A stretch of 64,000 nt of DNA from Patescibacteria group bacterium (lineage in GTDB: Bacteria > Patescibacteriota > Patescibacteriia > JAXHNJ01), in NCBI GenBank assembly GCA_041649715.1, contig JBAZMP010000001.1:436638-500637 (forward strand), given 5' to 3'. The notes beneath the pieces were generated by a model, which was not told the origin of the DNA, did no database searches, and saw only the letters and a program-made list of their open reading frames with translations. The position numbers and the translations under genes were made by a program. Shown here one piece after another: positions 2,180 to 62,260 of this stretch. The stretch's first letter is position 1; each line of letters starts with the position of its first letter.

Positions 2180-3128
2180 ATTTGCTGATCAAGGTTTGTA
2201 AGCTAACTTCGCGATTACGGTTACCTTCTCGCCATAGGACTTTGGCGGTTATTTTTTTGATATCCGCTGAGCTGTTGTGATCCTGGATAGTAAGCGTTGT
2301 CTGGCCGGCGGGCAGATCATTGATACCTAATCTTTCCCAGCCGTCAGCCACCTGGTCATGCGGACCCGAAACGAAATCACCGTTGGTCACGAGAGTTCCG
2401 TCGATTTTTATGTCGTCAAAATAAGCATGCACCGAATTTAAGCCGAGCAGGGCCGCTTTGCCGGAACTCAGACTGGCGTCGGTAATAGAGGCAAGCTCGA
2501 CTGAATTGCGGTAAATTTTTATGTTGCCGGCGCTTATTTGTGCTTTATAGGTATACCAAATATCAAAGGCCGTGGCTGGCGCGGCGCTATAGAGGGTTAA
2601 TTCTACACCCGCCACTTTTTTGATAAGACTTAAATTATTCGGAGAAAAACTCAGCTGGTAATAATTATTCTTATCCTGATAATAGAAATAAAGACCAGCT
2701 CGCCAGCCAGTCGGTGAACCAGATGATAATATTTTGATATCGCCTTCCAGAATAATATTTTGCAGATCTCCCAGGGGTAAAAGCTGCAAGCCGGTAACTC
2801 CGGAGAGACTACCCGGTGATTTCAGTTCATAAACATGTCTGGTGTCATCGAGAACGACTTGCCAGTCGCCAACGTTATAGGCGACATTCATAAAGTTGTT
2901 GTCCGCCGGTTGGACCAGCTTATCAAAAGTCAAGCTTCTTAGAGCTTCGATCTCTTCCTGGGCCAGTTCGTATGCGTGTATCAAATTTTTATTGGAAGAA
3001 GAAAGGTCTATATAACGGGAAATACTGGCAAATACATAAATCAGAAGAGAAACGACAAAGATACTCATGATCGCTTCTATTAAGCTTACCCCCGAAGTTT
3101 TTTTAGGGAATTTAGAGAATAGGTTCAT
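2160..3128 (-). CDS. Prepilin-type pilin/pseudopilin, 322 aa, with a large C-terminal domain.
   Basis: N-terminus KKTSGVSLIEAIMSIFVVSLLIYVF, the canonical G|VSLIE class III signal plus a TM helix. Confidence 0.7.
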   Translation of the reverse strand: MNLFSKFPKKTSGVSLIEAIMSIFVVSLLIYVFASISRYIDLSSSNKNLIHAYELAQEEIEALRSLTFDKLVQPADNNFMNVAYNVGDWQVVLDDTRHVYELKSPGSLSGVTGLQLLPLGDLQNIILEGDIKILSSGSPTGWRAGLYFYYQDKNNYYQLSFSPNNLSLIKKVAGVELTLYSAAPATAFDIWYTYKAQISAGNIKIYRNSVELASITDASLSSGKAALLGLNSVHAYFDDIKIDGTLVTNGDFVSGPHDQVADGWERLGINDLPAGQTTLTIQDHNSSADIKKITAKVLWREGNRNREVSLQTLISKYGLHLK

Positions 3129-3133
3129 TGATT

Positions 3134-4354: not shown

Positions 4355-6082
4355 TTATTCTTGAGTTACTCTTAAAATTTCTTCGATGGTTGTGATGCCC
4401 ATTTTGGCTTTGACAAAGCCATCCTGGGTAATCGTGATCATCCCATCCTTTTCCGCGGCTTTTTGGATTTCTCCGGATGAGGAACCCTCCAAAATTAATT
4501 TGGTTACGTTTTCCGTATTTTCAAGAATTTCATAAATGCCGATTCGGCCCTTATATCCCTCCCCGTTGCATTTTTTGCAGCCTTTACCCCGGTAAAATAA
4601 AAGGGTGTCAAGGGGTTGATTGGCGGAAATAATTGCCCCCTCTCTTTCTAGGGCGTTTAGGATCTCCTTGAAATTCACTTGTTTTTCCAACTGCTCAATA
4701 TTTTTTTTCGTTAAAGCATAACTTTCAATGCAGCCGAGGCAAATTTTCCGGACTAATCTTTGGGCGATAATAATGTTAGTCGTGGATGCGATCAAAAAGG
4801 AGGGGACGCCCATCTCTTCCAAGCGGGGGAGGGCGGTGGCGGCATCATTGGTATGCAAGGTAGATAAAACCAGATGGCCGGTCATGGCGGAGTGAATGGC
4901 TATTTCCGCTGTTTCTTTATCGCGGATTTCACCCACCATTATGATATTTGGATCCTGACGGAGGAGGGATCTTAAGCCGGTGGCAAAAGTAAAGCCGATA
5001 CGCGGATTGACCTGGCTTTGATTGATGCGCGGCATACGGTATTCGATCGGATCTTCAATCGTGGAAATATTAATCTTGGGAGAATTAAGGATGTGCATGA
5101 TGCTGTAAAGAGTCGTCGTTTTTCCGGAACCGGTGGGGCCGGTGACCAAGACGACGCCATGAGGTTTCTTCATGTTTTTTTTGACGATTTCAAGCTGTTT
5201 TTTCAAAAAACCAAGCTGTTCCAGAGTGGAAACCTGGGCGGATTCGCGGAGTAAGCGCAAAACGACCTTCTCTCCGTCGAAAACGGGGATAATCGAGACG
5301 CGGAATGAAACTTTTTGCGTTTCAATATTTATCTTAAAACGCCCATCCTGGGGAAGGCGATGCTCGTCTATTTTTAAATTTGAAAGGATTTTTATTCTCG
5401 CGACAACTCCGGTCTGGACGTTTTTGGGCAAAGTCATGACATCCTTTAAAATACCGTCAATTCGGTAGCGGATGACGGTGTCTGTCTCCGTCGGCTCAAT
5501 GTGAATGTCTGAAGCGGCTTCAAAGATGGCGTATTCTAAGACAGTATCCACGATTCTAACTACCGGTAGATCTTCCGCCAGCTTTTTCAGGTCTTTTTCC
5601 GCCGAAACCGTTTCTTCGTTAGCTTGGGAAATTTCTTTAAATTCCGCCTTGAGGCCCTTATGGTACTGTTTTAGGGCGGATTTTACGCTTTCGGGCGTGG
5701 TAACATAAATAATGGGCTTTAGATTGGTTTTCTTTTCGATGAACTCGAAAGTTTGCAAATCAAAAGGGTCAAGGCAGGCGACCTTCATTTCCTCTTTTGT
5801 TTTGTCAAAAGCAAAAATGCCATGAACCTGGACAATGGGTTCTGGTATGAGATCTAAGATATCCTTGCGGATAATCTGGTCTTTTAAATCAATAAAGGGG
5901 TATTTAAGATGACGCGCAATTATTTCGTAGAGTTGGGGTTCAGAGGCGAGATTCTTGTCAATCAGATAGTTTTGGAGATTTTTGCCTTCTTCGTGGGATT
6001 TTTTTATCACTTCCTCTATATTTGCATCGTCAATGATTTTTTCCTTTATCAGTAGACTTTTTAATTCCTCCTCCTTTATCAT
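4355..6082 (-). CDS. pilB: Type IV pilus assembly ATPase PilB (GspE family).
   Basis: Walker A VLVTGPTGSGKTTTLYS, a GEIRD Asp-box, a C-terminal tetracysteine zinc motif CLGC...CKKCNGEG, and an N-terminal GSPII_E_N-like domain. Confidence 0.9.
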   Translation of the reverse strand: MIKEEELKSLLIKEKIIDDANIEEVIKKSHEEGKNLQNYLIDKNLASEPQLYEIIARHLKYPFIDLKDQIIRKDILDLIPEPIVQVHGIFAFDKTKEEMKVACLDPFDLQTFEFIEKKTNLKPIIYVTTPESVKSALKQYHKGLKAEFKEISQANEETVSAEKDLKKLAEDLPVVRIVDTVLEYAIFEAASDIHIEPTETDTVIRYRIDGILKDVMTLPKNVQTGVVARIKILSNLKIDEHRLPQDGRFKINIETQKVSFRVSIIPVFDGEKVVLRLLRESAQVSTLEQLGFLKKQLEIVKKNMKKPHGVVLVTGPTGSGKTTTLYSIMHILNSPKINISTIEDPIEYRMPRINQSQVNPRIGFTFATGLRSLLRQDPNIIMVGEIRDKETAEIAIHSAMTGHLVLSTLHTNDAATALPRLEEMGVPSFLIASTTNIIIAQRLVRKICLGCIESYALTKKNIEQLEKQVNFKEILNALEREGAIISANQPLDTLLFYRGKGCKKCNGEGYKGRIGIYEILENTENVTKLILEGSSSGEIQKAAEKDGMITITQDGFVKAKMGITTIEEILRVTQE

Positions 6083-8297: not shown

Positions 8298-9341
8298 ATG
8301 CTTGACTCAAATTTTAACATCATAAAGATTTTTATCTTGACCACTGTTTCTTTCGGCGTCTCCATTATTTTGACCCCGGCGTTGACCCATTATCTTTATA
8401 AATACAAGCTCGGTAAAAAAATTCGGAGCGATGAAGGAACGCCAATTTATTCAAAGATGCATGCCGATAAATCCGGCACGCCAACCATGGGCGGTTTGTT
8501 AATCTGGCTGACCACGCTAATATTAGTCTTCTTGGTTTATTTTTTGGGTAAAATAACCCCCGTCGTATTTATTCAAAAGCTAAATTTTCTTTCCCGGCCA
8601 CAGACCTATTTGCCCCTGGCGTCGCTGGTGGCCGCCGCCTTGATAGGATTATTTGATGATATAATAGATATAAGGCGGGAAAAAGGCGGCGGTTTGCGCG
8701 TTAGACAAAGATTAGTCATTTTCACAATTATTGCCGTGGTCGGCGCTCTTTGGTTTTATTTTAAATTAGATTGGACGACTATTCATGTTCCCTTTATCGG
8801 TAATTTCGACATCGGGGCCTGGTATATCCCTATTTTTATCTTTATTATCGTCGCCACCTCTTTTTCCGTGAACGAAGCGGACGGTCTGGACGGTCTGGCG
8901 GGCGGAATATTGCTCGCCTCTTTTGTCGCTTTTGGCGCGATTGCTTTAGCCCAAGGCCGGGCGGAGCTCGCGACTTTTTGCGGCGTCATTGCCGGGGCAC
9001 TTTTCGCTTTTTTGTGGTTTAATATCCCGCCCGCCCGTTTTTTCATGGGCGATACCGGCTCAATGGCTCTGGGCGTGACCCTGGGGATAGTCGCCATGCT
9101 TACTAATGCCGCCTTACTTTTGCCGGTTATTTCTTTATTGTTGGTAATTGAATCGGGTTCTGTTATTATTCAGGTCCTTTCCAAAAAAATCCGTAAAAAG
9201 AAGATTTTCATTTCCGCCCCCATCCATCATCATTTGGAAGCGATCGGTTGGCCGGAATCTAAAATAGTCATGCGTTTCTGGATTATTTCCTCGGTAACCG
9301 CGGTGGTCGGCGTCGTAATATACTTAATGGACAGATTTTAA
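8298..9341 (+). CDS. mraY: Phospho-N-acetylmuramoyl-pentapeptide transferase MraY.
   Basis: Polytopic protein with the MraY motifs (DGLDGLAGG, PARFFMGDTGS, HHHLE). Confidence 0.9.
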   Translation: MLDSNFNIIKIFILTTVSFGVSIILTPALTHYLYKYKLGKKIRSDEGTPIYSKMHADKSGTPTMGGLLIWLTTLILVFLVYFLGKITPVVFIQKLNFLSRPQTYLPLASLVAAALIGLFDDIIDIRREKGGGLRVRQRLVIFTIIAVVGALWFYFKLDWTTIHVPFIGNFDIGAWYIPIFIFIIVATSFSVNEADGLDGLAGGILLASFVAFGAIALAQGRAELATFCGVIAGALFAFLWFNIPPARFFMGDTGSMALGVTLGIVAMLTNAALLLPVISLLLVIESGSVIIQVLSKKIRKKKIFISAPIHHHLEAIGWPESKIVMRFWIISSVTAVVGVVIYLMDRF

Positions 9342-18711: not shown

Positions 18712-18973
18712 TAATAGTAATAAGATGCAGTATATTTGCCTCTTGACATTTTTTATTAATTGATTTTATTCCTAAAATAAGCTAAAATTATTGAGTTCCT
18801 TTCACGACAAAAAAATAATAAAAGAAAGATAATTTTCACACGAAGTTTAGATTCACATATTTTTGGCTCTAATTATTGAAAAATAAAAATACAAATTTAT
18901 CTTATAAAATTTCGAAAGTATTTTGAAAAATAATACTCAACAAAAAACAATTTATTTTATTTAATAATATAGT

Positions 18974-18982
18974 TATCCACAG
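18974..18982 (+). promoter_or_regulatory. Perfect DnaA-box consensus TTATCCACA. It is part of a 14-mer, TATAGTTATCCACA, that recurs at 44176-44189.
   Basis: Exact 9-mer match to the E. coli-type DnaA box in the AT-rich intergenic region upstream of the SpeA-like gene. Confidence 0.4.
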
Positions 18983-19004: not shown

Positions 19005-20609
19005 ATGCCAGTACTCGGGGTACGTTACGGACAAAAAGTTCTAATTGGCGGACAAGAGATTAAAGCGGTTGTTGGCCAATCTTCTAAAAATAGTGACAAG
19101 AAGGATTCTTTGGTTAGGGTTGATGATAAAAAAAGTGAAGTTAAGGTCAGGGAGATGCCGGTCATAAAAAAGAACGGCGAATTAAAAAGGGAAGTAAAAG
19201 AGGTTGACGGCCGCAATCTCCCTAGCGAAAAAAATTATTCGTCTCTGCGGAAATTCAAGAAGTTCTGGAAATTAGGCGTTCAAGAACTGAATACCGAGTA
19301 TTTCGATATCAATCAGCAGGGGGTGCTGACCGTCAAGGAAGGGAATAATCAGTATAATATCCAGCAGCTGGTGGAAAAGTACGGTTCGCCGGTGGAAATA
19401 TATTTCCCCTTTATCCTGGAAGAAAGGCTGACCAGCATCATTGATTTGTTCAATTTTTACATAAAATATTTTAAATACCGGGGCAAATTCTATTATCATT
19501 ACCCGATGAAGGTAAATCAGAACAAGGAGATCATCCTGCCGATCGTCAGCGAAGGCGCCAATCTTGAGGCCAGTTCTTATAATGAACTGTATTTGGTGAA
19601 AAAACTTTGGGAGCAGGGCAGTTTTCACGAGAAGATCAAAGTCATCTGCAACGGCCCGAAAACGGAAAAATATCTGGCCTTGATCGAGGAACTGAGAAAT
19701 AATAATCTGTCGATTATTCCCATCATCGAGGACAATAAGGAGTTGGAATTTTTACAAAAGTACAAAGGCGATGTCGGTATCCGCGTGGATTTGAGAACTA
19801 AGGTCCGTTCGCACTGGGATAAAAAGATAAATCGCTACGGTTTTACCGAAGAAGAAATAAAAAAGATCGGCAAAGTCAGGAATTTAAAAATACTCCATTA
19901 CCATTTGGGTTCACAGGTCGAATATCTGGATGATATTTTCAATTCGGTCAAAAAGGGGATGGAAGTGTACGTGCAGCTTAAGAAGAAAAATCCGAGTCTG
20001 GACACGCTGGATATCGGCGGCGGACTGCCTATTCCTTACGACCGCAAAAAACACTACAGCATTGACAGCCTGGTAAGGAAAATAATCCGTCATCTTAATT
20101 CCGTGGCGGATCAGAAAAAAATAGCGCCGCCGGACATCATCTGCGAATGGGGGCGATTTGTCGCCGCGCCGTCGCAGATGACCGTGTTTAAAATACTTTC
20201 ATCCAAAACGATACCCAAGGGTAACGCCAAGGCCTGGTATGTCATTGACGGCAGTTTTATGAATGATCTAATGGATACCTGGGCGATTCATCAGTGCTGG
20301 CATGTTTTGCCGGTGAACCATTTGATGGCAAGCAAGCTCAACCGATGCTGGTTGGCTGGACTAAGCTGCGATACCGACGATAAATATATCGCGCACGGCC
20401 ATTATATCTTACTGCCCAAAATAACAAATTTAAAAGAAGGGGAAAGCCTCTACGTCGCTTTCTTGGACACCGGCGCCTATCAAAACGCTTTGGCTTCCCA
20501 TCATTGCCTTCTTTCCTGGCCGGCCAGGCTTTTGGCGGAGAACGGCGTTGTGAGACAGATTAGAAGGCATGAAACGCCTGATGACGTCGGCAAAATCTAT
20601 GGCTGGTAG
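19005..20609 (+). CDS. PLP-dependent fold-III decarboxylase, biosynthetic arginine decarboxylase (SpeA)-like. The true start may be downstream of 19005.
   Basis: PMKVNQNK (PLP-lysine region), HLGSQ, GGGLPIPYD glycine-rich loop, and a C-terminal beta-barrel domain. The K-rich N-terminal 100 aa may not be translated. Confidence 0.55.
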   Translation: MPVLGVRYGQKVLIGGQEIKAVVGQSSKNSDKKDSLVRVDDKKSEVKVREMPVIKKNGELKREVKEVDGRNLPSEKNYSSLRKFKKFWKLGVQELNTEYFDINQQGVLTVKEGNNQYNIQQLVEKYGSPVEIYFPFILEERLTSIIDLFNFYIKYFKYRGKFYYHYPMKVNQNKEIILPIVSEGANLEASSYNELYLVKKLWEQGSFHEKIKVICNGPKTEKYLALIEELRNNNLSIIPIIEDNKELEFLQKYKGDVGIRVDLRTKVRSHWDKKINRYGFTEEEIKKIGKVRNLKILHYHLGSQVEYLDDIFNSVKKGMEVYVQLKKKNPSLDTLDIGGGLPIPYDRKKHYSIDSLVRKIIRHLNSVADQKKIAPPDIICEWGRFVAAPSQMTVFKILSSKTIPKGNAKAWYVIDGSFMNDLMDTWAIHQCWHVLPVNHLMASKLNRCWLAGLSCDTDDKYIAHGHYILLPKITNLKEGESLYVAFLDTGAYQNALASHHCLLSWPARLLAENGVVRQIRRHETPDDVGKIYGW

Positions 20610-20669
20610 ATTGCTCGTTGTTATTTTAAAAGAGACTTATAAATATGTTCGCTTAATTATCATATTATT

Positions 20670-21956
20670 ATGAAAGCAAAAAATTTCTTATTTGTTTCTT
20701 GGGAAAGCTTGAGCGGGGATGTCGCTTGGCGGGTACAGAAAGAGGGCCATCATGTCAGGGCCTATATCGACCGGAAGGATGATTCAGATGTTTATGACGG
20801 GCTTTTAGAAAAGGTAAAAAAATGGAAGGATCAGATTGACTGGGCAGATATCGTTGTTTTTGATGACGTCGGTTTCGGCCAGGAGGCGGACCAACTGCGC
20901 CGGGCCGGAAAAAAGGTGGTAGGCGGCAGCGAATATACCGATCGCTTGGAGGATGATCGGGAGTTCGGCCAATCGGAAATGAAAGATACCGGCCTCCAAG
21001 TTCTGCCCCACTGGGATTTTGAAAATTTCCATGCCGGCATAAAATTTATCCGGGAGAATCCGGGCCGTTATGTTTTCAAACCAAGCGGCAAGGCGCAAAG
21101 CAACAAGGATCTGCTTTTTATCGGCGAAGAAGACGAAGGAAATGACATCCTGGAGTTGCTGGAAAGCAATAAAAATCAATGGCGAGAAAAGATAAAGACT
21201 TTCCAGCTGCAGAAATTCGCCGCCGGAGTGGAAATCGCGGTCGGTGCCTTTTTTAACGGTCAAGAGTTTATTACCCCGGTCAACATAAATTTCGAGCATA
21301 AACGGATGTTTCCCGGTGATCTCGGTCCGCTGACCGGCGATATGGGCGCGTTGATGTTTTGGGCCCAGCCCAACGGTTTCTTTAATAATACTCTGGCAAA
21401 AATGGCGCCCAAAATTGCGGCCTCCGGTTACGTGGGCTATCTGGATCTTAATTGTATCGTTAATGGCCGGGGAATTTATCCGCTGGAATTTACTTCCCGA
21501 TTTGGTTACCCGACGATTGACGTGCAGCTATCCAGCCTAGAAATGCCGATTGGCGAGTTTTTATACCGTCTGGCTTCAAAGGAAAAATTCGAAATATTGG
21601 TCAAAAAGGGTTTTCGGATCGGTATTTGCTGCGTGACCTCGCCTTATCTCTCCGAGGATCCAGCCGATATCGCCACTTACCGCGATCTTTCTATTTTATT
21701 CCGCCGGCCTAATCCTGATTGGGAGGGCATTCATCTTGGTGATGTAAAAATGGTTGACGGTCAATTACGGGTGGCCGGGACTTCCGGCTACAGCCTGGTC
21801 GTCTCCGGCGGGGGCAATACGGTTGATGAGGCGCGCAGGCAGGCTTATAACCGGGTAAAAAATATCCGTCTGCAAAATATGTTTTATCGGGTCGATATTG
21901 GCGAGCGCTGGCTGACAGACAGCGATTTGCTGCAAACCTGGGGTTATCTCAAATAA
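20670..21956 (+). CDS. PurD-family (phosphoribosylamine--glycine ligase-like) ATP-grasp enzyme.
   Basis: Collinear similarity to PurD: GDLGPLTGDMGA vs GDKDTGPNTGGMGA, EFTSRFGYP vs EFNCRFGDP, SGGGNTVDEARRQAY vs ALGHTVAEAQKRAY, and a terminal DIGERW vs DIGWRA. Confidence 0.6.
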   Translation: MKAKNFLFVSWESLSGDVAWRVQKEGHHVRAYIDRKDDSDVYDGLLEKVKKWKDQIDWADIVVFDDVGFGQEADQLRRAGKKVVGGSEYTDRLEDDREFGQSEMKDTGLQVLPHWDFENFHAGIKFIRENPGRYVFKPSGKAQSNKDLLFIGEEDEGNDILELLESNKNQWREKIKTFQLQKFAAGVEIAVGAFFNGQEFITPVNINFEHKRMFPGDLGPLTGDMGALMFWAQPNGFFNNTLAKMAPKIAASGYVGYLDLNCIVNGRGIYPLEFTSRFGYPTIDVQLSSLEMPIGEFLYRLASKEKFEILVKKGFRIGICCVTSPYLSEDPADIATYRDLSILFRRPNPDWEGIHLGDVKMVDGQLRVAGTSGYSLVVSGGGNTVDEARRQAYNRVKNIRLQNMFYRVDIGERWLTDSDLLQTWGYLK

Positions 21957-22013: not shown

Positions 22014-24683
22014 ATGTCTTTTATCGGAAAAATTTTTGGCGATGGCAATAAGCGGGTTTTGGATAAACTGACGCCAGTTTTGGCCGAGGTCAATAAATTT
22101 GAAGAAATGATGAAAAAATTGCCTGATGCGGATTTTATTCATAAAACACATGAATTCAAAGGGATGTTGGCTAAGGATCCGTCAAAGATCGACCAAATTT
22201 TACCGGAAGCCTTTGCCATGGCGAGGGAGGCGGCTAAAAGGACTTTGGGCCAAAGGCATTTTGACATGCAGATTCTGGGCGGACTGGTCCTTCATCAGGG
22301 CAAGATCGCGGAAATGAAAACCGGTGAGGGCAAAACATTGGTCGCGACCTTGCCTTTGTATTTAAACGCCTTGACCGGCCGTGGCTGCCACCTGGTTACC
22401 GTGAACGATTATCTTGCCAAACGTGACTGCGGCTGGATGGGGCCGGTATATTACGCGTTGGGGGTGAGTGTGGCCGCCATCGTCCATGAAGAGGCTTTCA
22501 TCTTTGACCCGGATTTTGAAAACAAGGAGGCGATTGACCCTAAGGTAAGACACTTAAAACCCGTCAACCGGCGGCAGGCTTATGAGGCGGATATCACCTA
22601 CGGGACCAATAATGAATTTGGCTTTGACTACTTGCGCGATAATATGGTTCCCGACTTGCCGTATATGGTTCAGCGGGAATTGAATTACGCGATTGTCGAT
22701 GAAGTAGACAGTATCCTGATAGATGAGGCGCGTACCCCACTGATTATTTCCGCTCCGGCGGAGGAATCCACGGAAATGTATTATAAATTTGCCCAGCTTA
22801 TTCCGCAGCTTGAGGAGGGGACAGATTACAATATCGACGAAAAAATGCGGGCCGCCACCTTGACCGAGGAGGGGATGAATAAAATGGAAAAAAAGCTCGG
22901 CCTTTCCAATATCTATGAAGCCGGCGGGATTGAGCTGGTCCATCATCTCGAACAGGCGTTGAAAGCGCACGCCCTTTTTAAAAGAGACAAGGATTATGTG
23001 GTCAAAGAGGGAGAAATTATCATCGTGGATGAATTCACTGGTCGTTTGATGTTTGGACGGCGTTATTCGGAGGGTTTGCACCAGGCCATTGAGGCGAAAG
23101 AAGGTGTGGAGATAAAAAAGGAAAGTCAGACGTTGGCCACCATTTCATTTCAGAATTACTTTCGCATATATAAAAAACTGTCTGGAATGACCGGGACAGC
23201 GGCGACGGAAGCGGAGGAATTCCACAAAATCTATAATCTTGAGGTGATTGTCGTGCCAACCAACAAGCCGATGATCAGAAAAGACTCAAATGACAGTATC
23301 TACAAGTCAGAAAAAGGTAAATTCATGGCTATCGTCCACGAGATCAAGCGCCGGCACGAAATCGGCCAGCCGGTGCTGGTGGGCACGATTTCCATTGAAA
23401 AAAATGAATTATTGGCGGAATTGCTTGAGCGGGAGGGGGTGCCGCATAATGTGTTAAACGCCAAGCAGCACGAGAGAGAGGCGCAGATTATCGCCCAGGC
23501 CGGAAAATTCGGGGCGGTCACCGTGGCCACCAATATGGCCGGTCGCGGCGTGGATATTGTCTTGGGCGGTAACCCGCCGGACGAAAAAGAAGCGCAAAAA
23601 GTAAAAGAAATCGGCGGTCTGCACGTTTTAGGGACCGAGCGTCACGAATCAAGGCGGATTGACAATCAGCTCCGCGGCCGCACCGGCCGCCAAGGCGATC
23701 CGGGCTCATCCCAGTTTTTTATTTCCCTGGAGGATGATTTAATGAGAATCTTCGGTTCAGGCCGGATGAAATCCTTCATGGACCGTCTGGGGGTGCCTGA
23801 GGATATGCCCATTGAAAATAAAATGATTTCCCGGTCGATTGAATCGGCTCAGAAAAAAGTGGAAGGTAATAATTTTGACATCAGAAAACACCTCGTGGAA
23901 TATGATGACGTGATGAATAAGCACCGCGAAGTGATTTACAAGAAACGTCAGCAGATTTTGAATATCAAGCCCGAAGATTTGAGAAAATCATTGATGGAAA
24001 TGATCGACGGAGAAATCGAACAAGTGGTTTTGTTTCACACCACCGCCGAAGATGAAAGGACCTGGAATTTGGATGAGATATACGAGGTGGTTGATACGAT
24101 TTTTCCGGTGCCTCTTTCGACCCGTGTCAAGCTGGAAGATCTGCGAAAAGAGGCCGGTGACAAAGCGGACGATGCCCGTTCACGTTCCCACATCATTGAC
24201 TACCTAATGTCTTTGGCAAATAAGGCCTATGATCAGATGGTCGAACAAATAAATGATACGAACTTCATGCACCAGATCGAAAGGGGAATAATTTTGCGCA
24301 CTATTGATACCCTATGGATCGAACATTTGGACCAGATGAATTATATGCGGACAGGTATCGGCCTGCGCGGTTACGGCCAGCAGGATCCTTTAGTGGAATA
24401 CAAAAAAGAAGCCTTCCAGATGTTTACCCAGCTGATGAACAATATCAACGCTCAGATTGTCTACAGCATCTATAAAATTCCTTTGGCGCAAAAACAAATG
24501 GTTTCTCCGATGCAAACGCAGAAACAGATAGAAACCGCGCCGGCCAAGGTTAGCGTTGAACAGAATGCTCCAGCTGACGGCATTAAGGATAAACCAAAGA
24601 ATGATTCAGGGAAAAAAATCGGACGCAACGATCCCTGCCCTTGCGGGAGCGGGAAAAAATACAAGAAGTGCTGTGGGAAATAG
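22014..24683 (+). CDS. secA: Preprotein translocase ATPase SecA.
   Basis: 889 aa with DEAD-like motor motifs, a preprotein cross-linking domain, and a C-terminal zinc finger [14 protein letters not shown]. Confidence 0.95.
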
Positions 24684-30043: not shown

Positions 30044-30829
30044 ATGGAAACATCATCTATTATAAACGAAGAAGTTAGATTCAAAAAATTAAGGATTTAT
30101 AATGTCGTCATGGCTATTTTTCACGCGATTCAGGGCGTATTGATGCTGGTTTTAAGTACTAGTTTTTCCTTGCCCGTGACTACGTCTTTTGTCCAATATA
30201 GCTCCACGGCCGGTAAGCTGGAACCGGTAATAAAGCAAGCTTTTGAAATAAGGCTCGGACTATTAGTCGCAATTTTTCTCTTTCTTTCCGCCCTGGCTCA
30301 TTTTTTGGTTTCCACGTTCTTTTATCGATGGTATGTGAATAATCTAAAGAGGGGGTTGAATTTGGCCCGTTGGATCGAATATTCTTTTAGCTCTTCGTTG
30401 ATGATCGTGGTTATCTCAATGTTGGTCGGGATTTATGATGGCGTAAGCCTAATGCTGATTTTCTTTCTTAATATGATGATGATACTTTTCGGCTGGCTGA
30501 TGGAAGTACATAATCAAACCACGCCAAAGATTAATTGGACTGCATTTATTTTCGGCTGTTTAGCGGGAGCCATTCCCTGGGTGGCAGTCGCCCTGTATTT
30601 GTTTGGTTCGGGAACGCCCGGAGCGAAACCGCCGACTTTTGTCTATTGGATCTTCTTTTCTATTTTTCTTTTCTTTAATATATTTGCCGTCAATATGGTA
30701 TTGCAATATAAAAAAACGGGTAAATGGCGAGATTATCTTTACGGCGAAAAGGTCTATATAATATTAAGTCTGGTGGCTAAATCATTGCTCGCCTGGCAGG
30801 TCTGGGCGGGAACGTTAAGGCCGGTCTAG
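30044..30829 (+). CDS. Heliorhodopsin (inverted-topology microbial rhodopsin).
   Basis: 261 aa, 7 TM. Close collinear match to heliorhodopsin 48C12: RWIEYSFSSSLMIVVIS vs RWVEYSLSSSVMIVLIA, ILFGWLMEV vs ILFGWLQEK, FGCLAGAIPW vs FGCIAGIVPW, and YGEKVYIILSLVAKSLLAWQVWAGTLRP vs RGERAYIVLSLVAKSALAWQIFSGTLIP. The retinal Schiff-base Lys in TM7 is conserved. Confidence 0.85.
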   Translation: METSSIINEEVRFKKLRIYNVVMAIFHAIQGVLMLVLSTSFSLPVTTSFVQYSSTAGKLEPVIKQAFEIRLGLLVAIFLFLSALAHFLVSTFFYRWYVNNLKRGLNLARWIEYSFSSSLMIVVISMLVGIYDGVSLMLIFFLNMMMILFGWLMEVHNQTTPKINWTAFIFGCLAGAIPWVAVALYLFGSGTPGAKPPTFVYWIFFSIFLFFNIFAVNMVLQYKKTGKWRDYLYGEKVYIILSLVAKSLLAWQVWAGTLRPV

Positions 30830-34772: not shown

Positions 34773-36182
34773 ATGGATATTACGTTAGATTTTTCCACTG
34801 GCGGTTATGCGGACTCCTATTTAGGTCCGTTCTATACTTTGTGGATAATTATTGCTCATGGCGGTTGGGTCGCCCTCGTCATTGCTTTCATTATCGGTTT
34901 TTTCTTGCTTTGGTTGGAATGGCGGCGCAATCTGTTTGACGCCAAGGTAAAATTTATCTTGTTGGCCATTGATATTCCTAAGGAAAATGAGCAGACGCCC
35001 AAAGCCGTGGAAAACATATTTTCACACTTGCACGGCATTCAAAAAAGAGGCAATTTTATTGAAAAGTATATTGGTGGTTACACGCAGCAGTGTTTTTCTT
35101 TGGAGATTATCAGTATCGGCGGATATATCCAATTTCTTATCCGGACACCGGAGGACTGGCGAGATTTAGCCGAAGCCGCCATCTACGCCCAATACCCCAA
35201 TGCGGAAATTACTGAAGTGGAAGATTACACGAAAGATATCAAGATCAAGTTTCCTAATGATGATTATGACATTTGGGGGACGCACATGACCCTAGAGAAA
35301 AAAGACGTATATCCCATTAAAACTTACGTATCTTTCGAAGATCCTTCCACAAAAGAAACGTTTAAAGATCCCATGGCTTCTTTGCTGGAAATAATGAGCC
35401 GTTTAAAAGAGGGGGAGCAGATTTGGATCCAGATGGTAATTTCTCCTGAAGGGAGCAAGGAATGGCGTGATTCCGGTATTAGGGTTATTAAAAAGCTGAT
35501 CGGCGCCAAAACAGAGAGTAAAGGAAAGGATTTATTTTGGCTGCCTAAAAATGTCATCCACGGGGTTAGCGAATCGTTATATGCTTCTATTATCTCCCCA
35601 TCTGATTTATACGGAAGTACCGCCCAAAAGGAGATTCTAAGATGGCCGACCATGATTCAACATTTATCTCCCTCGGAAAGATCGGTCGTGGAGGCGGTCG
35701 GCATAAAAATTTCCAAAATCGCCTTCAAAACAAAAATGAGGGTCATCTACTTGGGCAAAAAAGAAGTTTTCAGCAAAAATCGTTTTGTGCCGGCCATTAT
35801 GGGAGCCCTTAAACAATATAATACTCTGGATATCAACGGTTTAAAGGCCGATGCCAAAACCAAGACCAAGGTGGATTATCCGCCGATAAAGTCGATTATA
35901 GAATGGCGCCAGAACCGGAGAAAATGGCGGGTCATGTGGGGCTATAAATACCGGAGCAGCACGCGCGGGCGTTGCAAGTTTGTTTTAAATATCGAGGAAC
36001 TGGCTACTCTTTTTCATTTTCCGATCATGACGGTGAAAGCTCCGATGGTTAAGAAAACGGAGGCGCGCAAAGCAGAACCGCCGGTCTCTCTGCCCTTGGA
36101 GCAGGCTTACCCCCTTCATAAAAAAAGCGAGGAAGAAATAAGCGAAGAGGAAAAAATTCCCCAGAATATTCCCTTTATTTAA
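34773..36182 (+). CDS. Membrane-anchored hypothetical protein, the partner of the downstream ATPase.
   Basis: N-terminal TM helix or helices (WIIIAHGGWVALVIAFIIGFFLLWL), then a 400 aa soluble domain with no recognised motif. It ends 6 nt before the ATPase gene. Confidence 0.5.
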   Translation: MDITLDFSTGGYADSYLGPFYTLWIIIAHGGWVALVIAFIIGFFLLWLEWRRNLFDAKVKFILLAIDIPKENEQTPKAVENIFSHLHGIQKRGNFIEKYIGGYTQQCFSLEIISIGGYIQFLIRTPEDWRDLAEAAIYAQYPNAEITEVEDYTKDIKIKFPNDDYDIWGTHMTLEKKDVYPIKTYVSFEDPSTKETFKDPMASLLEIMSRLKEGEQIWIQMVISPEGSKEWRDSGIRVIKKLIGAKTESKGKDLFWLPKNVIHGVSESLYASIISPSDLYGSTAQKEILRWPTMIQHLSPSERSVVEAVGIKISKIAFKTKMRVIYLGKKEVFSKNRFVPAIMGALKQYNTLDINGLKADAKTKTKVDYPPIKSIIEWRQNRRKWRVMWGYKYRSSTRGRCKFVLNIEELATLFHFPIMTVKAPMVKKTEARKAEPPVSLPLEQAYPLHKKSEEEISEEEKIPQNIPFI

Positions 36183-41710: not shown

Positions 41711-41739
41711 AGACGAGCCTAAAAACTCGTCTTTTTTTT
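41711..41739 (+). terminator. Rho-independent terminator that closes the 41440-41740 hairpin-rich non-coding segment.
   Basis: Stem AGACGAG/CTCGTCT followed by TTTTTTTT. Confidence 0.6.
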
Positions 41740-41746
41740 ATCCACA
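41738..41746 (+). promoter_or_regulatory. Perfect DnaA-box consensus TTATCCACA, 10 nt upstream of a -35 element.
   Basis: Exact 9-mer. It overlaps the T-run of the preceding terminator and immediately precedes the TTGACA at 41756. Confidence 0.4.
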
Positions 41747-41755
41747 AGTTAGGTC

Positions 41756-41783
41756 TTGACAAAATTTTTATTTCGTGTATAAT
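41756..41783 (+). promoter_or_regulatory. Sigma70-type promoter (TTGACA, 16 nt spacer, TATAAT) driving the downstream non-coding transcript.
   Basis: TTGACAaaatttttatttcgtgTATAAT. No credible ORF follows for about 600 nt. Confidence 0.55.
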
Positions 41784-41789
41784 GATTGG

Positions 41790-42380
41790 TTGTTTTGACA
41801 ACTTGTGCTTTAGCACCTTAAACCCACCCTTTTATGCCAAGCTCAAGAGAGAGGGCTAATTAACTAAGATTTCTCTCTAGAAAGGAGAAAAGCTTGCGTC
41901 TGTATAGGGTTTGGCTGACCCTAGTCATGGTAAGGCAGAATCCTGATGCCTGAATAAGGATTGGGATAGCCTGAAACTGACGGCAAGACTGTCAGTAGAT
42001 CGGGAAGACCGGTTACATGGCATAAGGACGCTACTACCTTTCTTCTTCTCGGGCGTTCCGTCAGTATTACGCCCAAACGTAGATAAATAAGCCACTGGAT
42101 TGGTTAGAGACAATAGCTCTCTTCCCAAACAGTAAAATACTGGTACCGGTATCATACCCGAAGCCATCGGTCGGCTGCGTGTAAATAACCGGTTTGTCCG
42201 AGTGACAAGCCAAAACTTTAGGGGGTGGCACCGTCTTTGTTCCGTCGAGGCTAGGCCCCTCGTATAGCCAGTGGATTCGTCCGTTGGCGGAAAAAAGGAA
42301 CAAATATTAAATCAATATCATGCACGAGTTTTTCGACACAGTGATTCGGCGGACTTCATAGGAAGTCCGCCTCATTTTTT
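41790..42380 (+). ncRNA. Candidate structured non-coding RNA. Its core, about 41960-42200, carries RNase P RNA (rnpB)-like P4 motifs. The exact ends are uncertain.
   Basis: The segment has its own promoter and terminator (42348-42380), a higher GC content than neighbouring spacers, and many hairpins. GGGAAGACCGGUUACAUGGCAUAAGG (42002-42027) resembles the RNase P GGAAAGUCCGGGCUCCAUAGGGCA. AAUAACCGGUUUGUC (42184-42198) resembles the P4 3' strand AGAACCCGGCUUAUC. GGUCGGCUGCGUG resembles the P15 GGUAGGCUGCUUG. The six-frame ORFs here are short and lie in conflicting frames. Confidence 0.35.
42348..42380 (+). terminator. Rho-independent terminator.
   Basis: Stem GGCGGACTT/AAGTCCGCC followed by a T6 run. 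Confidence 0.65.
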
Positions 42381-44054: not shown

Positions 44055-44180
44055 CTGCAAATTGAGTTTATCCCCAGCCCCGTAATCGATATTAGAGATT
44101 AAGGGCTTATTCATAAAAGCGCAACGTTTTTTAGTCACTAACAATATTAGCCTTTAATATTAGCCTTTTTTTATCTATAG

Positions 44181-44189
44181 TTATCCACA
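44181..44189 (+). promoter_or_regulatory. Perfect DnaA-box consensus TTATCCACA. It shares the 14-mer TATAGTTATCCACA with the site at 18969-18982.
   Basis: Exact 9-mer, 20 nt upstream of a TTGACA at 44210. Confidence 0.4.
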
Positions 44190-44309
44190 AAAAAATAAAA
44201 GTCAGGGGCTTGACAAAGAACAATGGCTTGTTAAGCTTAAAGCAGAGGTAAACGCACATATCGTTCATTGAAAGCACACCGACAAAAGGTCTGATCTAAT
44301 CATATAATT

Positions 44310-44510
44310 ATGAAAGGAAAAGACCCTATGTTGTTACAACACATCATCGCAATTATCGCCGGCACCTTTCTCATACTTTTTTCCCTCAATCCCATTCAAC
44401 CCACTCCTCATCATCATTTCGACTTTGTCGACTCTTTTCTCCTCTTTGCCGGCCTTGCCTCTTTTCTCTACGGTGTGCTACACATCGCTCCAATTAACCT
44501 TTCCTTCTGA
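44310..44510 (+). CDS. Small hydrophobic protein, 66 aa, hypothetical.
   Basis: Two predicted TM segments and a HHH stretch, followed by a terminator hairpin. Confidence 0.35.
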   Translation: MKGKDPMLLQHIIAIIAGTFLILFSLNPIQPTPHHHFDFVDSFLLFAGLASFLYGVLHIAPINLSF

Positions 44511-60316: not shown

Positions 60317-62260
60317 ATGTCTATTGGAAAAAAAAGTAAACAGATGAAAAACGCCACGAATTTTTTAAGGAGTATTAAAATTAAAAAGGTTAATAGAAAC
60401 AGAAGAAGAAATATATTTATTTTTTCCGCAATTATTGCCTTTATTATTGTTCTTTTGGCCATCCCGTTGTTAATTTACTGGCCAACGGCCAAAAATCTTT
60501 ATCGTGGATCACTGGCCATTAAAAGCAATTTAAAGGCAATTGAAAGTAATATCTACAAAGAAGATTTAAGCCAGGCTCTAGACTTAATTGAAGAAACGGA
60601 TAATCTAATCATTCAGGCTAAAGCCGATTTGAAAAAACTTGGATTCTTGAAATATATTCCGATCGCTTCATCACAATATTTAGCTATGGAAAAAGTTTTT
60701 TCTGCCGGTCAAAATTTAACTACGGCCGGCCAAGACATCCTGGCCTATATCGTAGAGATCGTCGAACCTTTTAAAAAGGGGTCAAAAATAAGCTTGGGAG
60801 CTTTAAGTTCTGACCAAAAAGGTCGTATTTTGGGAAAGGTTTACGATTCCCAGGATCTTTTATCTAGGGCTAAAGGAAAAGTATTGATTGCGGCAGACGA
60901 AATGTCCAAAGTTTCAGAGACCGGTCTGATTAGTCAATTATCGGAAGCGGTCTCGACCATAAAAAAATATCTTCCAATTTTGATAAATGGTTTGGAACAA
61001 GGGCAAAAACTGGCCGCTCTGGTTCCGCCCCTGGTCGGTTACCCCGAACAAATTAATTATCTTTTTCTTTTGGAAAATAACGCGGAATTAAGGCCGTCCG
61101 GCGGTTTTATCGGCACCTACGGGGTTTTAAGCGTGAAGAACGGCGAGATTATAAGTTTCACCACGGATAATGTTTATAACCTCGATGAAGATTTTGCGCA
61201 ATGTATTACTCCGCCCTTGCCTTTGACCACTTATAACAAGACTAATTGCTGGTACCTTCGGGACGCTAATTGGTCGCCTGATTTTCCCACCTCCGCCCGT
61301 CAATCACTCTGGTTTTATGAAAAAGAAGGGGGAACCGAAAGAAATCTCCACGGCGTCGTGGCGATCACTCCGACATTTATCGAATCACTCATCGGTTTAA
61401 CCGGCGCGATCACGGTTGACGGCATCTCTTTTACCCAAAGCAACTTTGTGGATAACTTGCAGTACCAGGTGGAAAAAGGTTTCTACCAGAAAGGATTGGA
61501 AATGAGCCAGAGAAAGGAGATTATCGGCGATTTATCAAAAATATTGCTCGATAGGGTGTTAGCCATCCCGCAGGAAAAATGGCCTGATTTATGGAAGATT
61601 ATCGACGAGAACACGAGAAATAAGCAAATATTGTTGTATTTAAACGATGAAAAACTAGAGAATATGGTCTTAGAAAAAAATTGGGCGGGCAGCGTCGTTT
61701 CTTCAGAAAGCGACTATTTTACTTTTATCGATGCTAACTTGGCCAGCTTAAAAACAGATTTGTCGGTAAAAAGAACCATTAACTATTACGTAAAAAACGA
61801 AAATAACAAACTAACGGTCAATTTACAGGTCGTCTATAAGCATGAGGGAAATTTTGATTGGAAGACGACCCGTTACCGGACATATTTCCGTCTCTACGTG
61901 CCCAAGGGTAGCCAGTTGGTTGATATCATCGGTACCAATGAAGAAAAAACGGCCGGAGAAGACTTGGGAAAAACATATTTTGGCTCTTTTTTAAGCGTGG
62001 AACCCCAAGAAACACAGAAATTAACTTTTATTTATACGTTGCCTGATAGTATTTATGATCAGCTAAAAAACAAGGAGTATGCCTTATTAGTCCAAAAACA
62101 AGCCGGTACGGCGAATTATGATTTTAACGCTTACTTTGATCTTGGTCGTAAGGTAAGGGAGTTTAAACCCATTGACAAAGTGAAGAAAGAAAGTAATAAT
62201 AACTTAAGTTTAAAAACCTCTTTAAGCGAGGATTTTAGCCTAAGAATCGTTTTTAAATAG
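60317..62260 (+). CDS. N-terminally membrane-anchored hypothetical protein (DUF4012-like), 647 aa.
   Basis: A basic N-terminus, one TM helix and a large extracytoplasmic domain. It sits inside the glycan cluster. The family assignment is tentative. Confidence 0.4.
   Translation: MSIGKKSKQMKNATNFLRSIKIKKVNRNRRRNIFIFSAIIAFIIVLLAIPLLIYWPTAKNLYRGSLAIKSNLKAIESNIYKEDLSQALDLIEETDNLIIQAKADLKKLGFLKYIPIASSQYLAMEKVFSAGQNLTTAGQDILAYIVEIVEPFKKGSKISLGALSSDQKGRILGKVYDSQDLLSRAKGKVLIAADEMSKVSETGLISQLSEAVSTIKKYLPILINGLEQGQKLAALVPPLVGYPEQINYLFLLENNAELRPSGGFIGTYGVLSVKNGEIISFTTDNVYNLDEDFAQCITPPLPLTTYNKTNCWYLRDANWSPDFPTSARQSLWFYEKEGGTERNLHGVVAITPTFIESLIGLTGAITVDGISFTQSNFVDNLQYQVEKGFYQKGLEMSQRKEIIGDLSKILLDRVLAIPQEKWPDLWKIIDENTRNKQILLYLNDEKLENMVLEKNWAGSVVSSESDYFTFIDANLASLKTDLSVKRTINYYVKNENNKLTVNLQVVYKHEGNFDWKTTRYRTYFRLYVPKGSQLVDIIGTNEEKTAGEDLGKTYFGSFLSVEPQETQKLTFIYTLPDSIYDQLKNKEYALLVQKQAGTANYDFNAYFDLGRKVREFKPIDKVKKESNNNLSLKTSLSEDFSLRIVFK

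What the first reader, a model, noticed from the sequence alone, without database searches (positions are those of the whole stretch)
18969..18982. Perfect DnaA-box 9-mer TTATCCACA at three promoter-proximal sites; two share an identical 14-mer
TTATCCACA occurs exactly at 18974-18982, 41738-41746 and 44181-44189. All are on the plus strand and all are in intergenic regions just upstream of promoter-like elements. The first and third are embedded in the identical 14-mer TATAGTTATCCACA. A given 9-mer is expected roughly 0.5 times in 64 kb on both strands, so three copies with an extended identical context is non-random. It suggests a transcription-factor regulon (DnaA or another factor using this site) covering the SpeA-like/ATP-grasp operon, the ncRNA promoter and the small-membrane-protein/mnmA region.
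Basis: seen in the sequence. Interest (0 to 1): 0.5.

Follow-up and report, generated by a model that had tools for sequence, protein, structure and literature searches.

The report
Promoter-linked DnaA boxes in a Patescibacterium
The three perfect DnaA-box 9-mers are real, and in related ultra-small (Patescibacteria) bacteria the same motif is specifically enriched next to promoters, above all before a polyamine-synthesis operon, so it most likely marks genes controlled by the replication initiator DnaA.

Summary
There are also two further minus-strand copies inside genes (34840, 61447).

In the window's non-coding DNA the count is 3 against about 0.04-0.09 expected. The window comes from a Patescibacteria MAG and contains no dnaA gene and no oriC.

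I compared 70 non-redundant related loci plus the window:
- **Intergenic DNA:** exact TTATCCACA occurs 23 times against 0.97 expected.
- **Coding DNA:** 11 against 8.6, which is background. One-mismatch variants are essentially at background too.
- **Ranking:** after tRNA and RNase P RNA words, it is the top intergenic 9-mer.

Intergenic copies extend to AGTTATCCACA. They are solitary and mostly point toward the downstream gene, just upstream of a -35 element.

Site 1 lies before the arginine-decarboxylase-like operon. It is conserved in 12 of 66 relatives, in the closest relative and in rearranged contexts, as an invariant island beside the -35 and -10 elements. Site 3 is absent from two relatives, and site 2 could not be tested.

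Best reading: these are DnaA-dependent promoter elements. DnaA acting as a transcription factor is a known mechanism; this lineage and these targets are new. DnaA binding itself is inferred, not shown.

The parts
18971..18981 (+). Site 1: AGTTATCCACA (9-mer at 18973-18981). It lies 23 nt upstream of the ATG of the SpeA-like gene and 5 nt upstream of a TATAAT. A TATAGT -10-like hexamer (18968-18973) overlaps its 5' end.
   Evidence: Conserved in the closest relative L161 in the same orientation, 21 nt from the ATG, inside the best-conserved block of the intergenic alignment. An exact box lies within 500 nt upstream in 12 of 66 relatives.
41738..41746 (+). Site 2: TTATCCACA. It sits directly after a terminator T-tract and 9 nt upstream of the -35 of a perfect consensus promoter. 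The flank is TT, not AG.
   Evidence: Conservation could not be tested.
41756..41783 (+). Promoter TTGACA-16-TATAAT (12 of 12 matches) that drives the non-coding unit.
41790..42380 (+). Putative ~590-nt structured ncRNA, the presumed target of site 2. It ends at the terminator 42348-42371 plus its T-tract.
   Evidence: Fold z-score -5.07, with 0 of 100 shuffles folding as well. No Rfam family matches.
44179..44189 (+). Site 3: AGTTATCCACA (9-mer at 44181-44189), 20 nt upstream of a -35 TTGACA. A TATAGT hexamer (44176-44181) overlaps its 5' end.
   Evidence: Absent in the syntenic relatives L157 and L158.
44210..44237 (+). Promoter TTGACA-16-TAAGCT upstream of the small membrane protein. Its position matches TTGACT-16-TAAATT in L157.
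44068..44076 (+). Variant box TTATCCCCA, 105 nt upstream of site 3.
   Evidence: This is the only one-mismatch variant clearly enriched in intergenic DNA (6 observed against 1.0 expected).
19005..20609 (+). SpeA-like PLP-dependent (Orn/Arg) decarboxylase, the first gene downstream of site 1.
   Evidence: Pfam PF02784. In relatives it is followed by DS-like and arginase-family genes, which makes a polyamine operon.
20670..21956 (+). GARS-like ATP-grasp gene, second gene of the operon; secA follows at 22014-24683.
   Evidence: In L156 the box precedes the ATP-grasp gene, which there sits upstream of speA.
44328..44510 (+). Small (about 60 aa) membrane protein downstream of site 3; mnmA follows at 44587-45606.
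   Evidence: The ORF and its leader are conserved in L157 and L158.
34840..34848 (-). Exact box inside ORF 34773-36182. The flank is AA; probably not part of the regulon.
   Evidence: Coding copies are at background frequency and lack the AG flank.
61447..61455 (-). Exact box (AGTTATCCACA) deep inside the DUF4012 gene 60317-62260. Its status is unclear and it may be chance.

Best explanation
The three intergenic copies are functional cis-regulatory sites of a lineage-wide, promoter-associated motif, AGTTATCCACA. Its core is the canonical high-affinity DnaA box.

The most likely mechanism is that a DnaA monomer binds each solitary box through its domain IV and modulates RNA polymerase at the adjacent sigma-70-type promoter.

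- **Boxes upstream of the -35, pointing toward the gene.** Sites 2 and 3, and most boxes in relatives, lie 1-26 nt upstream of the -35. At these, DnaA probably acts by direct contact with RNA polymerase. I think activation is more likely, but the sign is unknown.
- **Boxes overlapping or downstream of the core promoter.** Site 1, and the MurB-speA relatives where the box sits 14-21 nt downstream of the -10, fit this class. There, DnaA probably occludes the promoter or blocks the polymerase, giving repression.

The biological outcome would be coupling of the replication-initiator status to several targets: polyamine synthesis (the speA-like operon), ribosome hibernation (hpf in relatives), an abundant ncRNA, and a handful of other genes.

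Shown:
- The motif is real and its enrichment is exclusively intergenic.
- The exact 9-mer is required, with an added AG flank.
- Boxes are co-oriented with the downstream gene and adjacent to promoters.
- The box at the speA-like operon is conserved at orthologous positions.

Inferred:
- DnaA is the binding protein.
- Binding changes transcription, and in which direction.
For: (1) **Intergenic-only enrichment.** In 70 non-redundant Patescibacteria loci plus the window there are 23 exact boxes in 103 kb of intergenic DNA against 0.97 expected. In 861 kb of coding DNA there are 11 against 8.6. One-mismatch variants are essentially at background.

(2) **Unbiased ranking.** Among intergenic 9-mers, GTGGATAAC and TGTGGATAA sit directly behind words from tRNA and RNase P RNA genes. 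They are still 11- to 22-fold enriched after masking everything upstream of speA.

(3) **Control.** In 74 loci of other phyla, intergenic DNA has 0 boxes against 1.3 expected.

(4) **Flank.** Intergenic boxes carry A at -2 in 20 of 27 cases and G at -1 in 19 of 27; coding copies do not. From my own knowledge, the strong E. coli boxes R1 and R4 also read GTTATCCACA.

(5) **Orientation and position.** 20 of 27 intergenic boxes point to the start of the downstream gene, including all 9 non-speA boxes in relatives. The distance from box end to ATG is mostly 62-95 nt, which places the box just upstream of recognisable -35/-10 pairs.

(6) **Footprint at speA.**
- In five MurB-speA intergenic regions, the only invariant blocks in otherwise diverged AT-rich DNA are CTTGC (-35), TATAAAAT (-10) and TGTGGATAACT.
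- The box persists when the upstream neighbour is murB, hpf, a histidine phosphatase or a tRNA, and when the ATP-grasp gene precedes speA.
- The closest relative, L161, has it in the same orientation 21 nt from the ATG.
- 12 of 66 loci have an exact box within 500 nt upstream, against 0.3 expected.
- Orthologous sites in L162, L093 and L137 carry the one-mismatch forms TTTTCCACA or TTATCCACC, which DnaA-box degeneracy allows.

(7) **Window statistics.** Non-coding DNA has 3 boxes against 0.04-0.09 expected. The chance of two extra intergenic boxes besides site 1 is 0.0008-0.0035.

(8) **Motif shape.** The motif is asymmetric and solitary, which fits a monomeric binder such as DnaA domain IV rather than a dimeric regulator that reads palindromes.
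Against: - No dnaA gene or oriC was recovered for this lineage. I therefore could not check that its DnaA reads this box or that its origin uses it.
- In E. coli, ChIP-seq shows that DnaA binding in vivo almost always needs a pair of boxes 2-3 bp apart (PMC11317965). Here the boxes have no second box nearby.
- The spacing between box and promoter varies from 1 to 26 nt upstream of the -35. At speA the box is sometimes downstream of the -10 and in either orientation. No single stereospecific mechanism fits all sites.
- Site 3 is not conserved in two syntenic relatives, and site 2 is untestable.
- Seen post hoc, the window-only 9-mer statistic is unexceptional.
- The related loci were fetched through the speA-like gene, which inflates the raw intergenic count. 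I corrected for this.
Confidence: 0.68

Rival explanations
1. The boxes do bind DnaA, but they serve replication control rather than transcription. They would be isolated high-affinity titration sinks, as in the initiator-titration model or datA, that buffer free DnaA. Their position near promoters would then be incidental: non-coding DNA is simply where such sites are tolerated.
For: - Exact high-affinity boxes are solitary.
- Two further copies lie inside genes in this window.
- Titration by chromosomal boxes has experimental support in E. coli (PMC12371093).
- At speA, the flexible orientation and position suggest that mere presence may be what matters.
Against: - Coding copies are at background frequency, whereas titration sites need not avoid genes.
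- All 9 non-speA intergenic boxes in relatives, plus the 3 in the window, point toward the downstream gene. They cluster 62-95 nt before the ATG, next to -35 elements. A pure sink has no reason for that arrangement.
- The box tracks one operon through rearrangements.
- The density, roughly one intergenic box per 75 kb, is low for a buffer.
Confidence: 0.1
2. The 11-mer is the site of a different, Patescibacteria-specific DNA-binding protein. Candidates include a monomeric winged-helix or HTH regulator, or an accessory polymerase factor. The identity of the motif with the DnaA box would be coincidental.
For: - The requirement is very strict: the exact 9-mer plus the AG flank, with classic DnaA-tolerated variants (position 3 A/T, position 5 any base) not enriched overall.
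- The fixed orientation relative to promoters is unusual for DnaA regulons.
- There are no paired boxes, unlike E. coli in vivo sites.
- DnaA of this lineage was never examined.
Against: - A 9-of-9 match to the most conserved bacterial DnaA-box consensus, plus the same 5' G as the strong E. coli boxes, would be a striking coincidence.
- Orthologous speA and hpf sites use TTTTCCACA in L162 and L093, which is a classic DnaA-box variant.
- One relative (L107) has a same-strand array of four one-mismatch boxes in 76 bp, an arrangement typical of DnaA assembly sites.
- These reduced genomes encode few regulators (my own general knowledge).
Confidence: 0.12
3. Only site 1 is functional. Sites 2 and 3, and the shared 14-mer, are chance occurrences in AT-rich intergenic DNA.
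For: - Site 3 is missing from L157 and L158 although the promoter, leader and gene are conserved there.
- Site 2 lacks the AG flank, and half of it is formed by a terminator T-tract.
- Many arbitrary 9-mers reach 4-5 copies in the window.
- The extra 5 nt of the 14-mer are largely explained by the AG flank plus AT-rich context. TATAGTTATCCACA also occurs in L145.
Against: - The chance of two additional exact boxes in 4.3-6.6 kb of non-coding DNA is 0.0008-0.0035.
- Both sites are co-oriented with, and 9-20 nt upstream of, strong -35 elements. This is the modal arrangement of boxes in relatives.
Confidence: 0.1

Closest known systems
DnaA as a transcription factor acting through DnaA boxes at promoters. 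Examples: E. coli dnaA, nrdAB and others; B. subtilis dnaA, sda, ywlC, yydA; the P. aeruginosa gidAB-parAB promoter (PMC13438810); the E. coli ChIP-seq regulon (PMC11317965).
   Same: - The same 9-mer, TTATCCACA, placed in or next to sigma-70-type promoters.
- A small regulon, on the order of ten promoters per genome by extrapolation.
- Box positions that suggest both activation and repression.
   Different: - The boxes here are solitary, whereas E. coli in vivo sites are pairs spaced 2-3 bp.
- They are strongly co-oriented with the downstream gene and carry a conserved AG flank.
- The targets differ. Here they are a polyamine operon, hpf, an ncRNA, a TrmB-family regulator, glutamine synthetase and an MscS-like channel, not the nucleotide-synthesis and replication genes of model regulons.
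- The host is an uncultivated Patescibacterium. I found no paper in the searchable library that links DnaA boxes to this group.
Caulobacter crescentus DnaA regulon, with DnaA as a cell-cycle master regulator (PMC3193534).
   Same: DnaA couples initiation status to a wider growth programme through single boxes near promoters.
   Different: Caulobacter is cell-cycle specialised and its regulon is validated experimentally. Here there are no expression data, and the phylum and targets are unrelated.
DnaA titration sites and datA, the initiator-titration model (PMC12371093).
   Same: High-affinity exact boxes scattered outside oriC.
   Different: Here the enrichment is exclusively intergenic, next to promoters and oriented. 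There is no cluster like datA in the window.
oriC DnaA-box arrays.
   Same: The same consensus box.
   Different: The window has no cluster, no GC-skew switch and no dnaA or dnaN gene. The three sites are spread over 25 kb.
DnaA-box-dependent block of transcribing RNA polymerase at boxes inside transcription units (work of Schaefer and Messer around 1988-89 on asnC and other E. coli units). This is recalled from memory and was not checked here.
   Same: In the MurB-speA relatives the box lies 14-21 nt downstream of the -10, in the early transcribed region. In the window and in L161 it lies 21-23 nt before the ATG.
   Different: No evidence that termination occurs here. Box orientation differs among lineages.

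Membership tests
High-affinity DnaA box (cis element bound by DnaA domain IV) | 9-mer identical or near-identical to TTATCCACA | tested here: met
   There are five exact copies, three of them intergenic. Intergenic copies extend to AGTTATCCACA.
High-affinity DnaA box (cis element bound by DnaA domain IV) | Occurrence beyond compositional expectation, specific to the exact motif | tested here: met
   The window's non-coding DNA has 3 against 0.04-0.09 expected. Across the lineage, intergenic DNA has 23 against 0.97, coding DNA 11 against 8.6, and variants are at background. Control phyla have 0 against 1.3.
High-affinity DnaA box (cis element bound by DnaA domain IV) | The host encodes DnaA with a box-reading domain IV, and the host's oriC uses the same box | not tested
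   No dnaA was found in the window or in any fetched locus (tblastn). The L107 array of four near-boxes is only suggestive.
High-affinity DnaA box (cis element bound by DnaA domain IV) | Physical binding by DnaA | not testable with these tools
   Needs EMSA, DAP-seq or ChIP.
DnaA-regulated promoter (DnaA as transcription factor) | Box within or adjacent to a core promoter of the regulated gene | tested here: met
   Site 2 is 9 nt upstream of a 12-of-12 promoter. Site 3 is 20 nt upstream of TTGACA. Site 1 is 5 nt upstream of TATAAT. Relatives show the same arrangement.
DnaA-regulated promoter (DnaA as transcription factor) | Conservation of the box at orthologous promoters | tested here: inconclusive
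   Met for site 1. Not met for site 3 in L157 and L158. Site 2 has no orthologous locus.
DnaA-regulated promoter (DnaA as transcription factor) | Paired boxes 2-3 bp apart, as required for in vivo binding in E. coli (PMC11317965) | tested here: not met
   Boxes with two or fewer mismatches are not enriched within 100 nt of exact boxes, and no second-box signal appears in the flanks. The one exception is L105, with TTATTCACA-gct-TTATCCACA.
DnaA-regulated promoter (DnaA as transcription factor) | Expression responds to DnaA level or activity | not testable with these tools
   No expression data are available.
Replication origin or DnaA-box cluster (oriC, datA, DARS) | Several boxes within a few hundred bp | tested here: not met
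   The sites are 22.8 kb and 2.4 kb apart. No cluster of three or more boxes (one mismatch or fewer) occurs within 200 bp in the window.
Replication origin or DnaA-box cluster (oriC, datA, DARS) | GC-skew sign change and/or adjacency to dnaA or dnaN | tested here: not met
   GC skew is positive in all but one 4-kb interval across the window (that one -0.016), and the cumulative skew rises almost monotonically with no turning point. No DnaA homologue was found.

The most novel reading that the evidence does not exclude
In Patescibacteria of this clade, which the names of relatives suggest is ABY1-like, DnaA would be the principal global transcription factor. It would act as a monomer from solitary, promoter-co-oriented AGTTATCCACA sites.

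That would wire the replication-initiator state directly to polyamine synthesis, ribosome hibernation (hpf), a large uncharacterised ncRNA and a few envelope and nitrogen genes. It would be a minimal growth-control circuit for reduced genomes that have almost no other regulators.
Probability: 0.3. Interest if true: 0.65.

Novelty: new member of a known kind. Interest (0 to 1): 0.5.

Why it matters
Gene regulation in Patescibacteria (CPR bacteria) is almost unknown, and these organisms encode very few regulators.

This work gives several concrete handles:
- A cis-element that is the most enriched intergenic word after RNA genes.
- Conservation of that element in front of a polyamine operon, through gene-order changes.
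- Identity with the DnaA box, which yields a testable hypothesis for how these cells link replication to growth functions.
- Practical markers for promoters, including the promoter of an unclassified ~590-nt ncRNA.

If the solitary boxes do bind DnaA, that would also contrast with the paired-box rule found in E. coli.

Tried and rejected
- **Origin hypothesis.** Rejected. GC skew is positive in all but one interval along the window, no dnaA or dnaN was found, and the boxes are solitary.
- **Repeat or mobile-element hypothesis for the shared 14-mer.** Rejected. The contexts share nothing beyond the 14 nt. The extra bases are the AG flank plus AT-rich sequence or a TATAGT -10-like hexamer. The same 14-mer also occurs in the unrelated locus L145.
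- **Cooperative weak boxes near the perfect ones.** Not found.
- **RNA-level motif or sigma-28-like -10 (GTGGATAA resembling GCCGATAA) for the reversed boxes.** Considered and dropped. Most boxes lie upstream of the -35, in the other orientation, and are not transcribed.
- **Genome-contig scan with MnmA.** It returned only hits of 43% identity or less from other phyla. I reused them as a negative control.
- **nhmmer of the ncRNA and its upstream unit against all loci.** No homologues, so site 2 could not be footprinted.
- **Rfam.** Nothing for the non-coding units.
- **Literature searches for DnaA boxes in Patescibacteria, CPR or TM7.** Nothing found.

Full report
**Observation**

An exact search finds TTATCCACA five times in the window.
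- The + strand copies are at 18973-18981, 41738-41746 and 44181-44189.
- The - strand copies are at 34840-34848 and 61447-61455. Both lie inside ORFs.
- TATAGTTATCCACA is exact at 18968-18981 and 44176-44189.

Dinucleotide shuffles give 0.39 copies, and none of 100 shuffles reaches five. I checked how special this is. About a dozen arbitrary 9-mers are also at least 10-fold over-represented with four or more copies in this window, so the whole-window count is not remarkable post hoc.

Two other numbers are remarkable:
- Three copies fall in only 4.3-6.6 kb of non-coding DNA, where 0.04-0.09 are expected (P = 1e-5 to 1e-4).
- The exact word (5 copies) is nearly as frequent as all 27 one-mismatch variants together (13 copies).

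**Setting**

The window belongs to a Patescibacteria MAG. The NCBI name is 'Patescibacteria group bacterium' with locus tag WC528_02330, and the same sequence sits on a 382-kb ENA contig. GC content is 41.7%.

GC skew is positive in all but one 4-kb interval (that one -0.016), and the cumulative skew rises almost monotonically with no turning point. No DnaA homologue is present. This is therefore not an origin.

- **Site 1** lies in a 293-nt, very AT-rich spacer. Downstream are a PLP-dependent Orn/Arg-decarboxylase-like gene, a GARS-like ATP-grasp gene and secA. The box ends 5 nt before a TATAAT and 23 nt before the ATG.
- **Site 2** follows a terminator and ends 9 nt before a perfect TTGACA-16-TATAAT. 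That promoter heads a ~590-nt non-coding unit, which ends in a terminator, folds much better than shuffles (z = -5.07) and matches no Rfam family.
- **Site 3** ends 20 nt before TTGACA-16-TAAGCT, upstream of a ~60-aa membrane protein and mnmA.

**Comparative test**

A first scan of species-representative genomes with MnmA returned only distant phyla. I later used those loci as a control.

An alignment of SpeA-like homologues retrieved 80 Patescibacteria metagenome loci totalling 1.04 Mb, of which 70 are non-redundant. In these loci plus the window:

| DNA class | Length | Exact boxes observed | Expected |
|---|---|---|---|
| Intergenic | 103 kb | 23 | 0.97 |
| Coding | 861 kb | 11 | 8.6 |

Nearly every one-mismatch variant is at background. 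The main exception is TTATCCCCA, at 6 against 1.0.

An unbiased ranking of all intergenic 9-mers puts GTGGATAAC and TGTGGATAA directly behind words that derive from tRNA genes and from RNase P RNA.

Because the loci were fetched through speA, I masked 1.6 kb upstream of it and repeated the count. That leaves 9 boxes against 0.8 expected, in 8 loci. In 74 loci from other phyla, intergenic DNA has 0 against 1.3 and coding DNA 3 against 16.6.

**Anatomy of the motif**

- Intergenic copies have A at -2 (20 of 27) and G at -1 (19 of 27); coding copies do not. The element is therefore AGTTATCCACA, which explains part of the shared 14-mer.
- Weaker boxes are not enriched within 100 nt of the exact ones, so the sites are solitary.
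- Twenty of 27 intergenic boxes point toward the start of the downstream gene. This includes all nine boxes in relatives that are unrelated to speA.
- The distance from box end to ATG is mostly 62-95 nt.
- Reading the contexts, the box lies 1-26 nt upstream of recognisable -35 elements (TTGACA or TTGCxx) followed by TATAAT or TATAGT. A spacing of 30-31 nt from box end to the -10 recurs in several cases.
- Sites 2 and 3 of the window fit this class.

Genes downstream of boxes in relatives include hpf, a TrmB-family regulator, an MscS-like channel, glutamine synthetase, a DUF3644 protein, a peptidoglycan-binding protein and a giant S74-domain protein.

**Site 1 is a conserved footprint**

Twelve of 66 non-redundant loci have an exact box within 500 nt upstream of the SpeA-like ORF, against 0.3 expected. 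All twelve belong to the clade most similar to the window.

- **After murB.** In five loci where the gene follows murB, the intergenic alignment is diverged except for three invariant islands: CTTGC (-35), TATAAAAT (-10) and TGTGGATAACT. Here the box is reversed and sits 14-21 nt downstream of the -10.
- **After hpf.** Where hpf precedes the gene, the box sits either upstream of the hpf promoter (L095, L102, L110) or between hpf and speA (L081, L085, L091).
- **Swapped gene order.** In L156 the ATP-grasp gene comes first and the box precedes it. The orthologous site in L137 reads TTATCCACC.
- **Closest relative.** In L161 (72% protein identity) the box has the same orientation as in the window and lies 21 nt from the ATG. 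It sits inside the best-conserved block of an otherwise AT-rich spacer.
- **One-mismatch form.** L162 has TTTTCCACA 14 nt downstream of its -10, and L093 has AGTTTTCCACA at the hpf start.

In L161 and L162 the SpeA-like gene is followed by deoxyhypusine-synthase-like and arginase-family genes, so the target is a polyamine operon.

**Sites 2 and 3**

Two relatives (L157 and L158; MnmA identity 65% and 50%) keep the order exonuclease, GT2, small membrane protein, mnmA. They also keep the promoter position and the leader. Neither has a box anywhere in 12 kb and 21 kb respectively. Site 3 sits in a ~150-nt stretch that the closest of these, L157, lacks (there the promoter follows the GT2 stop codon directly), so it looks like a recent gain.

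The ncRNA of site 2 has no homologue in any locus, so its box cannot be footprinted. The functional status of both sites rests on two points. First, two extra intergenic boxes are improbable by chance (P = 0.0008-0.0035). Second, their geometry is typical of the class.

**Interpretation**

The element is an asymmetric, solitary, promoter-adjacent motif whose 9-nt core equals the canonical DnaA box. I infer that DnaA binds it and regulates the adjacent promoters.

- Boxes upstream of the -35 and co-oriented with the gene suggest a contact with RNA polymerase. I lean toward activation, but the sign is unknown.
- Boxes overlapping the -10 or start region, or lying downstream of it, suggest repression by occlusion or roadblock. 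The speA sites belong to this group.

Weak points:
- The lineage's DnaA and oriC were not seen.
- In E. coli, in vivo binding needs paired boxes (PMC11317965).
- The spacing between box and promoter is variable.

Rival readings are titration sinks (PMC12371093), a different lineage-specific binding protein, and chance for sites 2 and 3. I argue against each of these in the rival-explanations section of this report.

**Novelty**

DnaA acting as a transcription factor through DnaA boxes is well known. I found no paper in the searchable library that connects DnaA boxes with Patescibacteria, CPR or TM7.

I therefore classify this as a new member of a known kind. The lineage is new, the conserved targets are new (a polyamine operon and hpf), and the architecture of solitary, oriented sites is unusual. 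Interest is moderate.

Noticed in passing
window 41756-42380 (+): A ~590-nt non-coding unit with a perfect consensus promoter and an intrinsic terminator. Its fold z-score is -5.07, it matches no Rfam family, and it is absent from the syntenic position in the closest relative L157. It is a candidate novel large ncRNA.
   Followed up: partly
window 41442-41740 (+): A second non-coding unit bounded by a promoter (TTGACA-16-CAAAAT) and a terminator (41709-41734), directly upstream of site 2. It has no Rfam match, and the ORF that overlaps it runs through the terminator and looks spurious.
   Followed up: partly
window 42398-42555 (+); L157 ~3030-3130 and ~1640-1720: A 15-aa Cys-rich ORF, MFEPCPTCGNDPCTC (42455-42502), has its own promoter and terminator, and a leader hairpin that pairs across the start codon. 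Leader and ORF are almost identical at the nucleotide level in L157, where a diverged second copy also exists. The proteins of the two genomes are only 65-72% identical, so this is either an RNA element or a strongly constrained micropeptide.
   Followed up: partly
window 44285-44330 (+); L157 ~4725-4762; L158 ~9085-9125: A conserved 5'UTR hairpin lies before the small membrane protein. It reads GGTCT...AGACC in the window and L157 and GGCCT...AGGCC in L158, which is one compensatory pair. The Shine-Dalgarno sequence is in the loop and the 3' arm abuts the ATG.
   Followed up: partly
window 44143-44168 (+): A perfect tandem duplication of the 13-mer AATATTAGCCTTT lies just upstream of site 3, in a spacer that is absent from the closest relative L157.
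   Followed up: no
L107 10814-10889: Four one-mismatch DnaA boxes on the same strand (TTATCCCCA, ATATCCACA, TTATCCACG, TTGTCCACA) fall within 76 bp, next to an IS200-like transposase gene. The region is flanked by CTGTCAAGGTGnCACCTTGACAG hairpins on both sides. It could be a DnaA assembly site or an origin-like element.
   Followed up: partly
L084 6248-6270: A head-to-head pair, GGTGGATAA-aaaat-TTATCCACA, lies next to a tRNA gene and upstream of the SpeA-like gene.
   Followed up: no
window 19005-21956, compared with L161 1560-5230 and L162 10001-13533: In relatives the SpeA-like gene is followed by deoxyhypusine-synthase-like and arginase-family genes, the classic route to polyamines. In the window these are replaced by a GARS-like ATP-grasp gene. 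The window's SpeA-like protein also has an N-terminal extension of about 80 aa, which at full length is shared only with the closest relative.
   Followed up: partly
window 30044-30829 (+): A heliorhodopsin gene, according to the Pfam PF18761 annotation on the identical public contig.
   Followed up: no
window 33647-34765 (+) and L162 21326-21521: A protein with a sigma-70 region 4 domain plus a HARE-HTH domain is conserved in synteny. One of the coding-region boxes (34840) lies 67 nt into the next ORF, a 469-aa protein with no Pfam family.
   Followed up: no
window, whole: Other 9-mers are repeated 4-5 times at 10- to 20-fold over expectation, for example ACAGATTCA (5 copies) and the overlapping set CTTAAGTCC / CCTTAAGTC / ACCCTTAAG / GGGACTTAA. 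Their origin was not examined.
   Followed up: no
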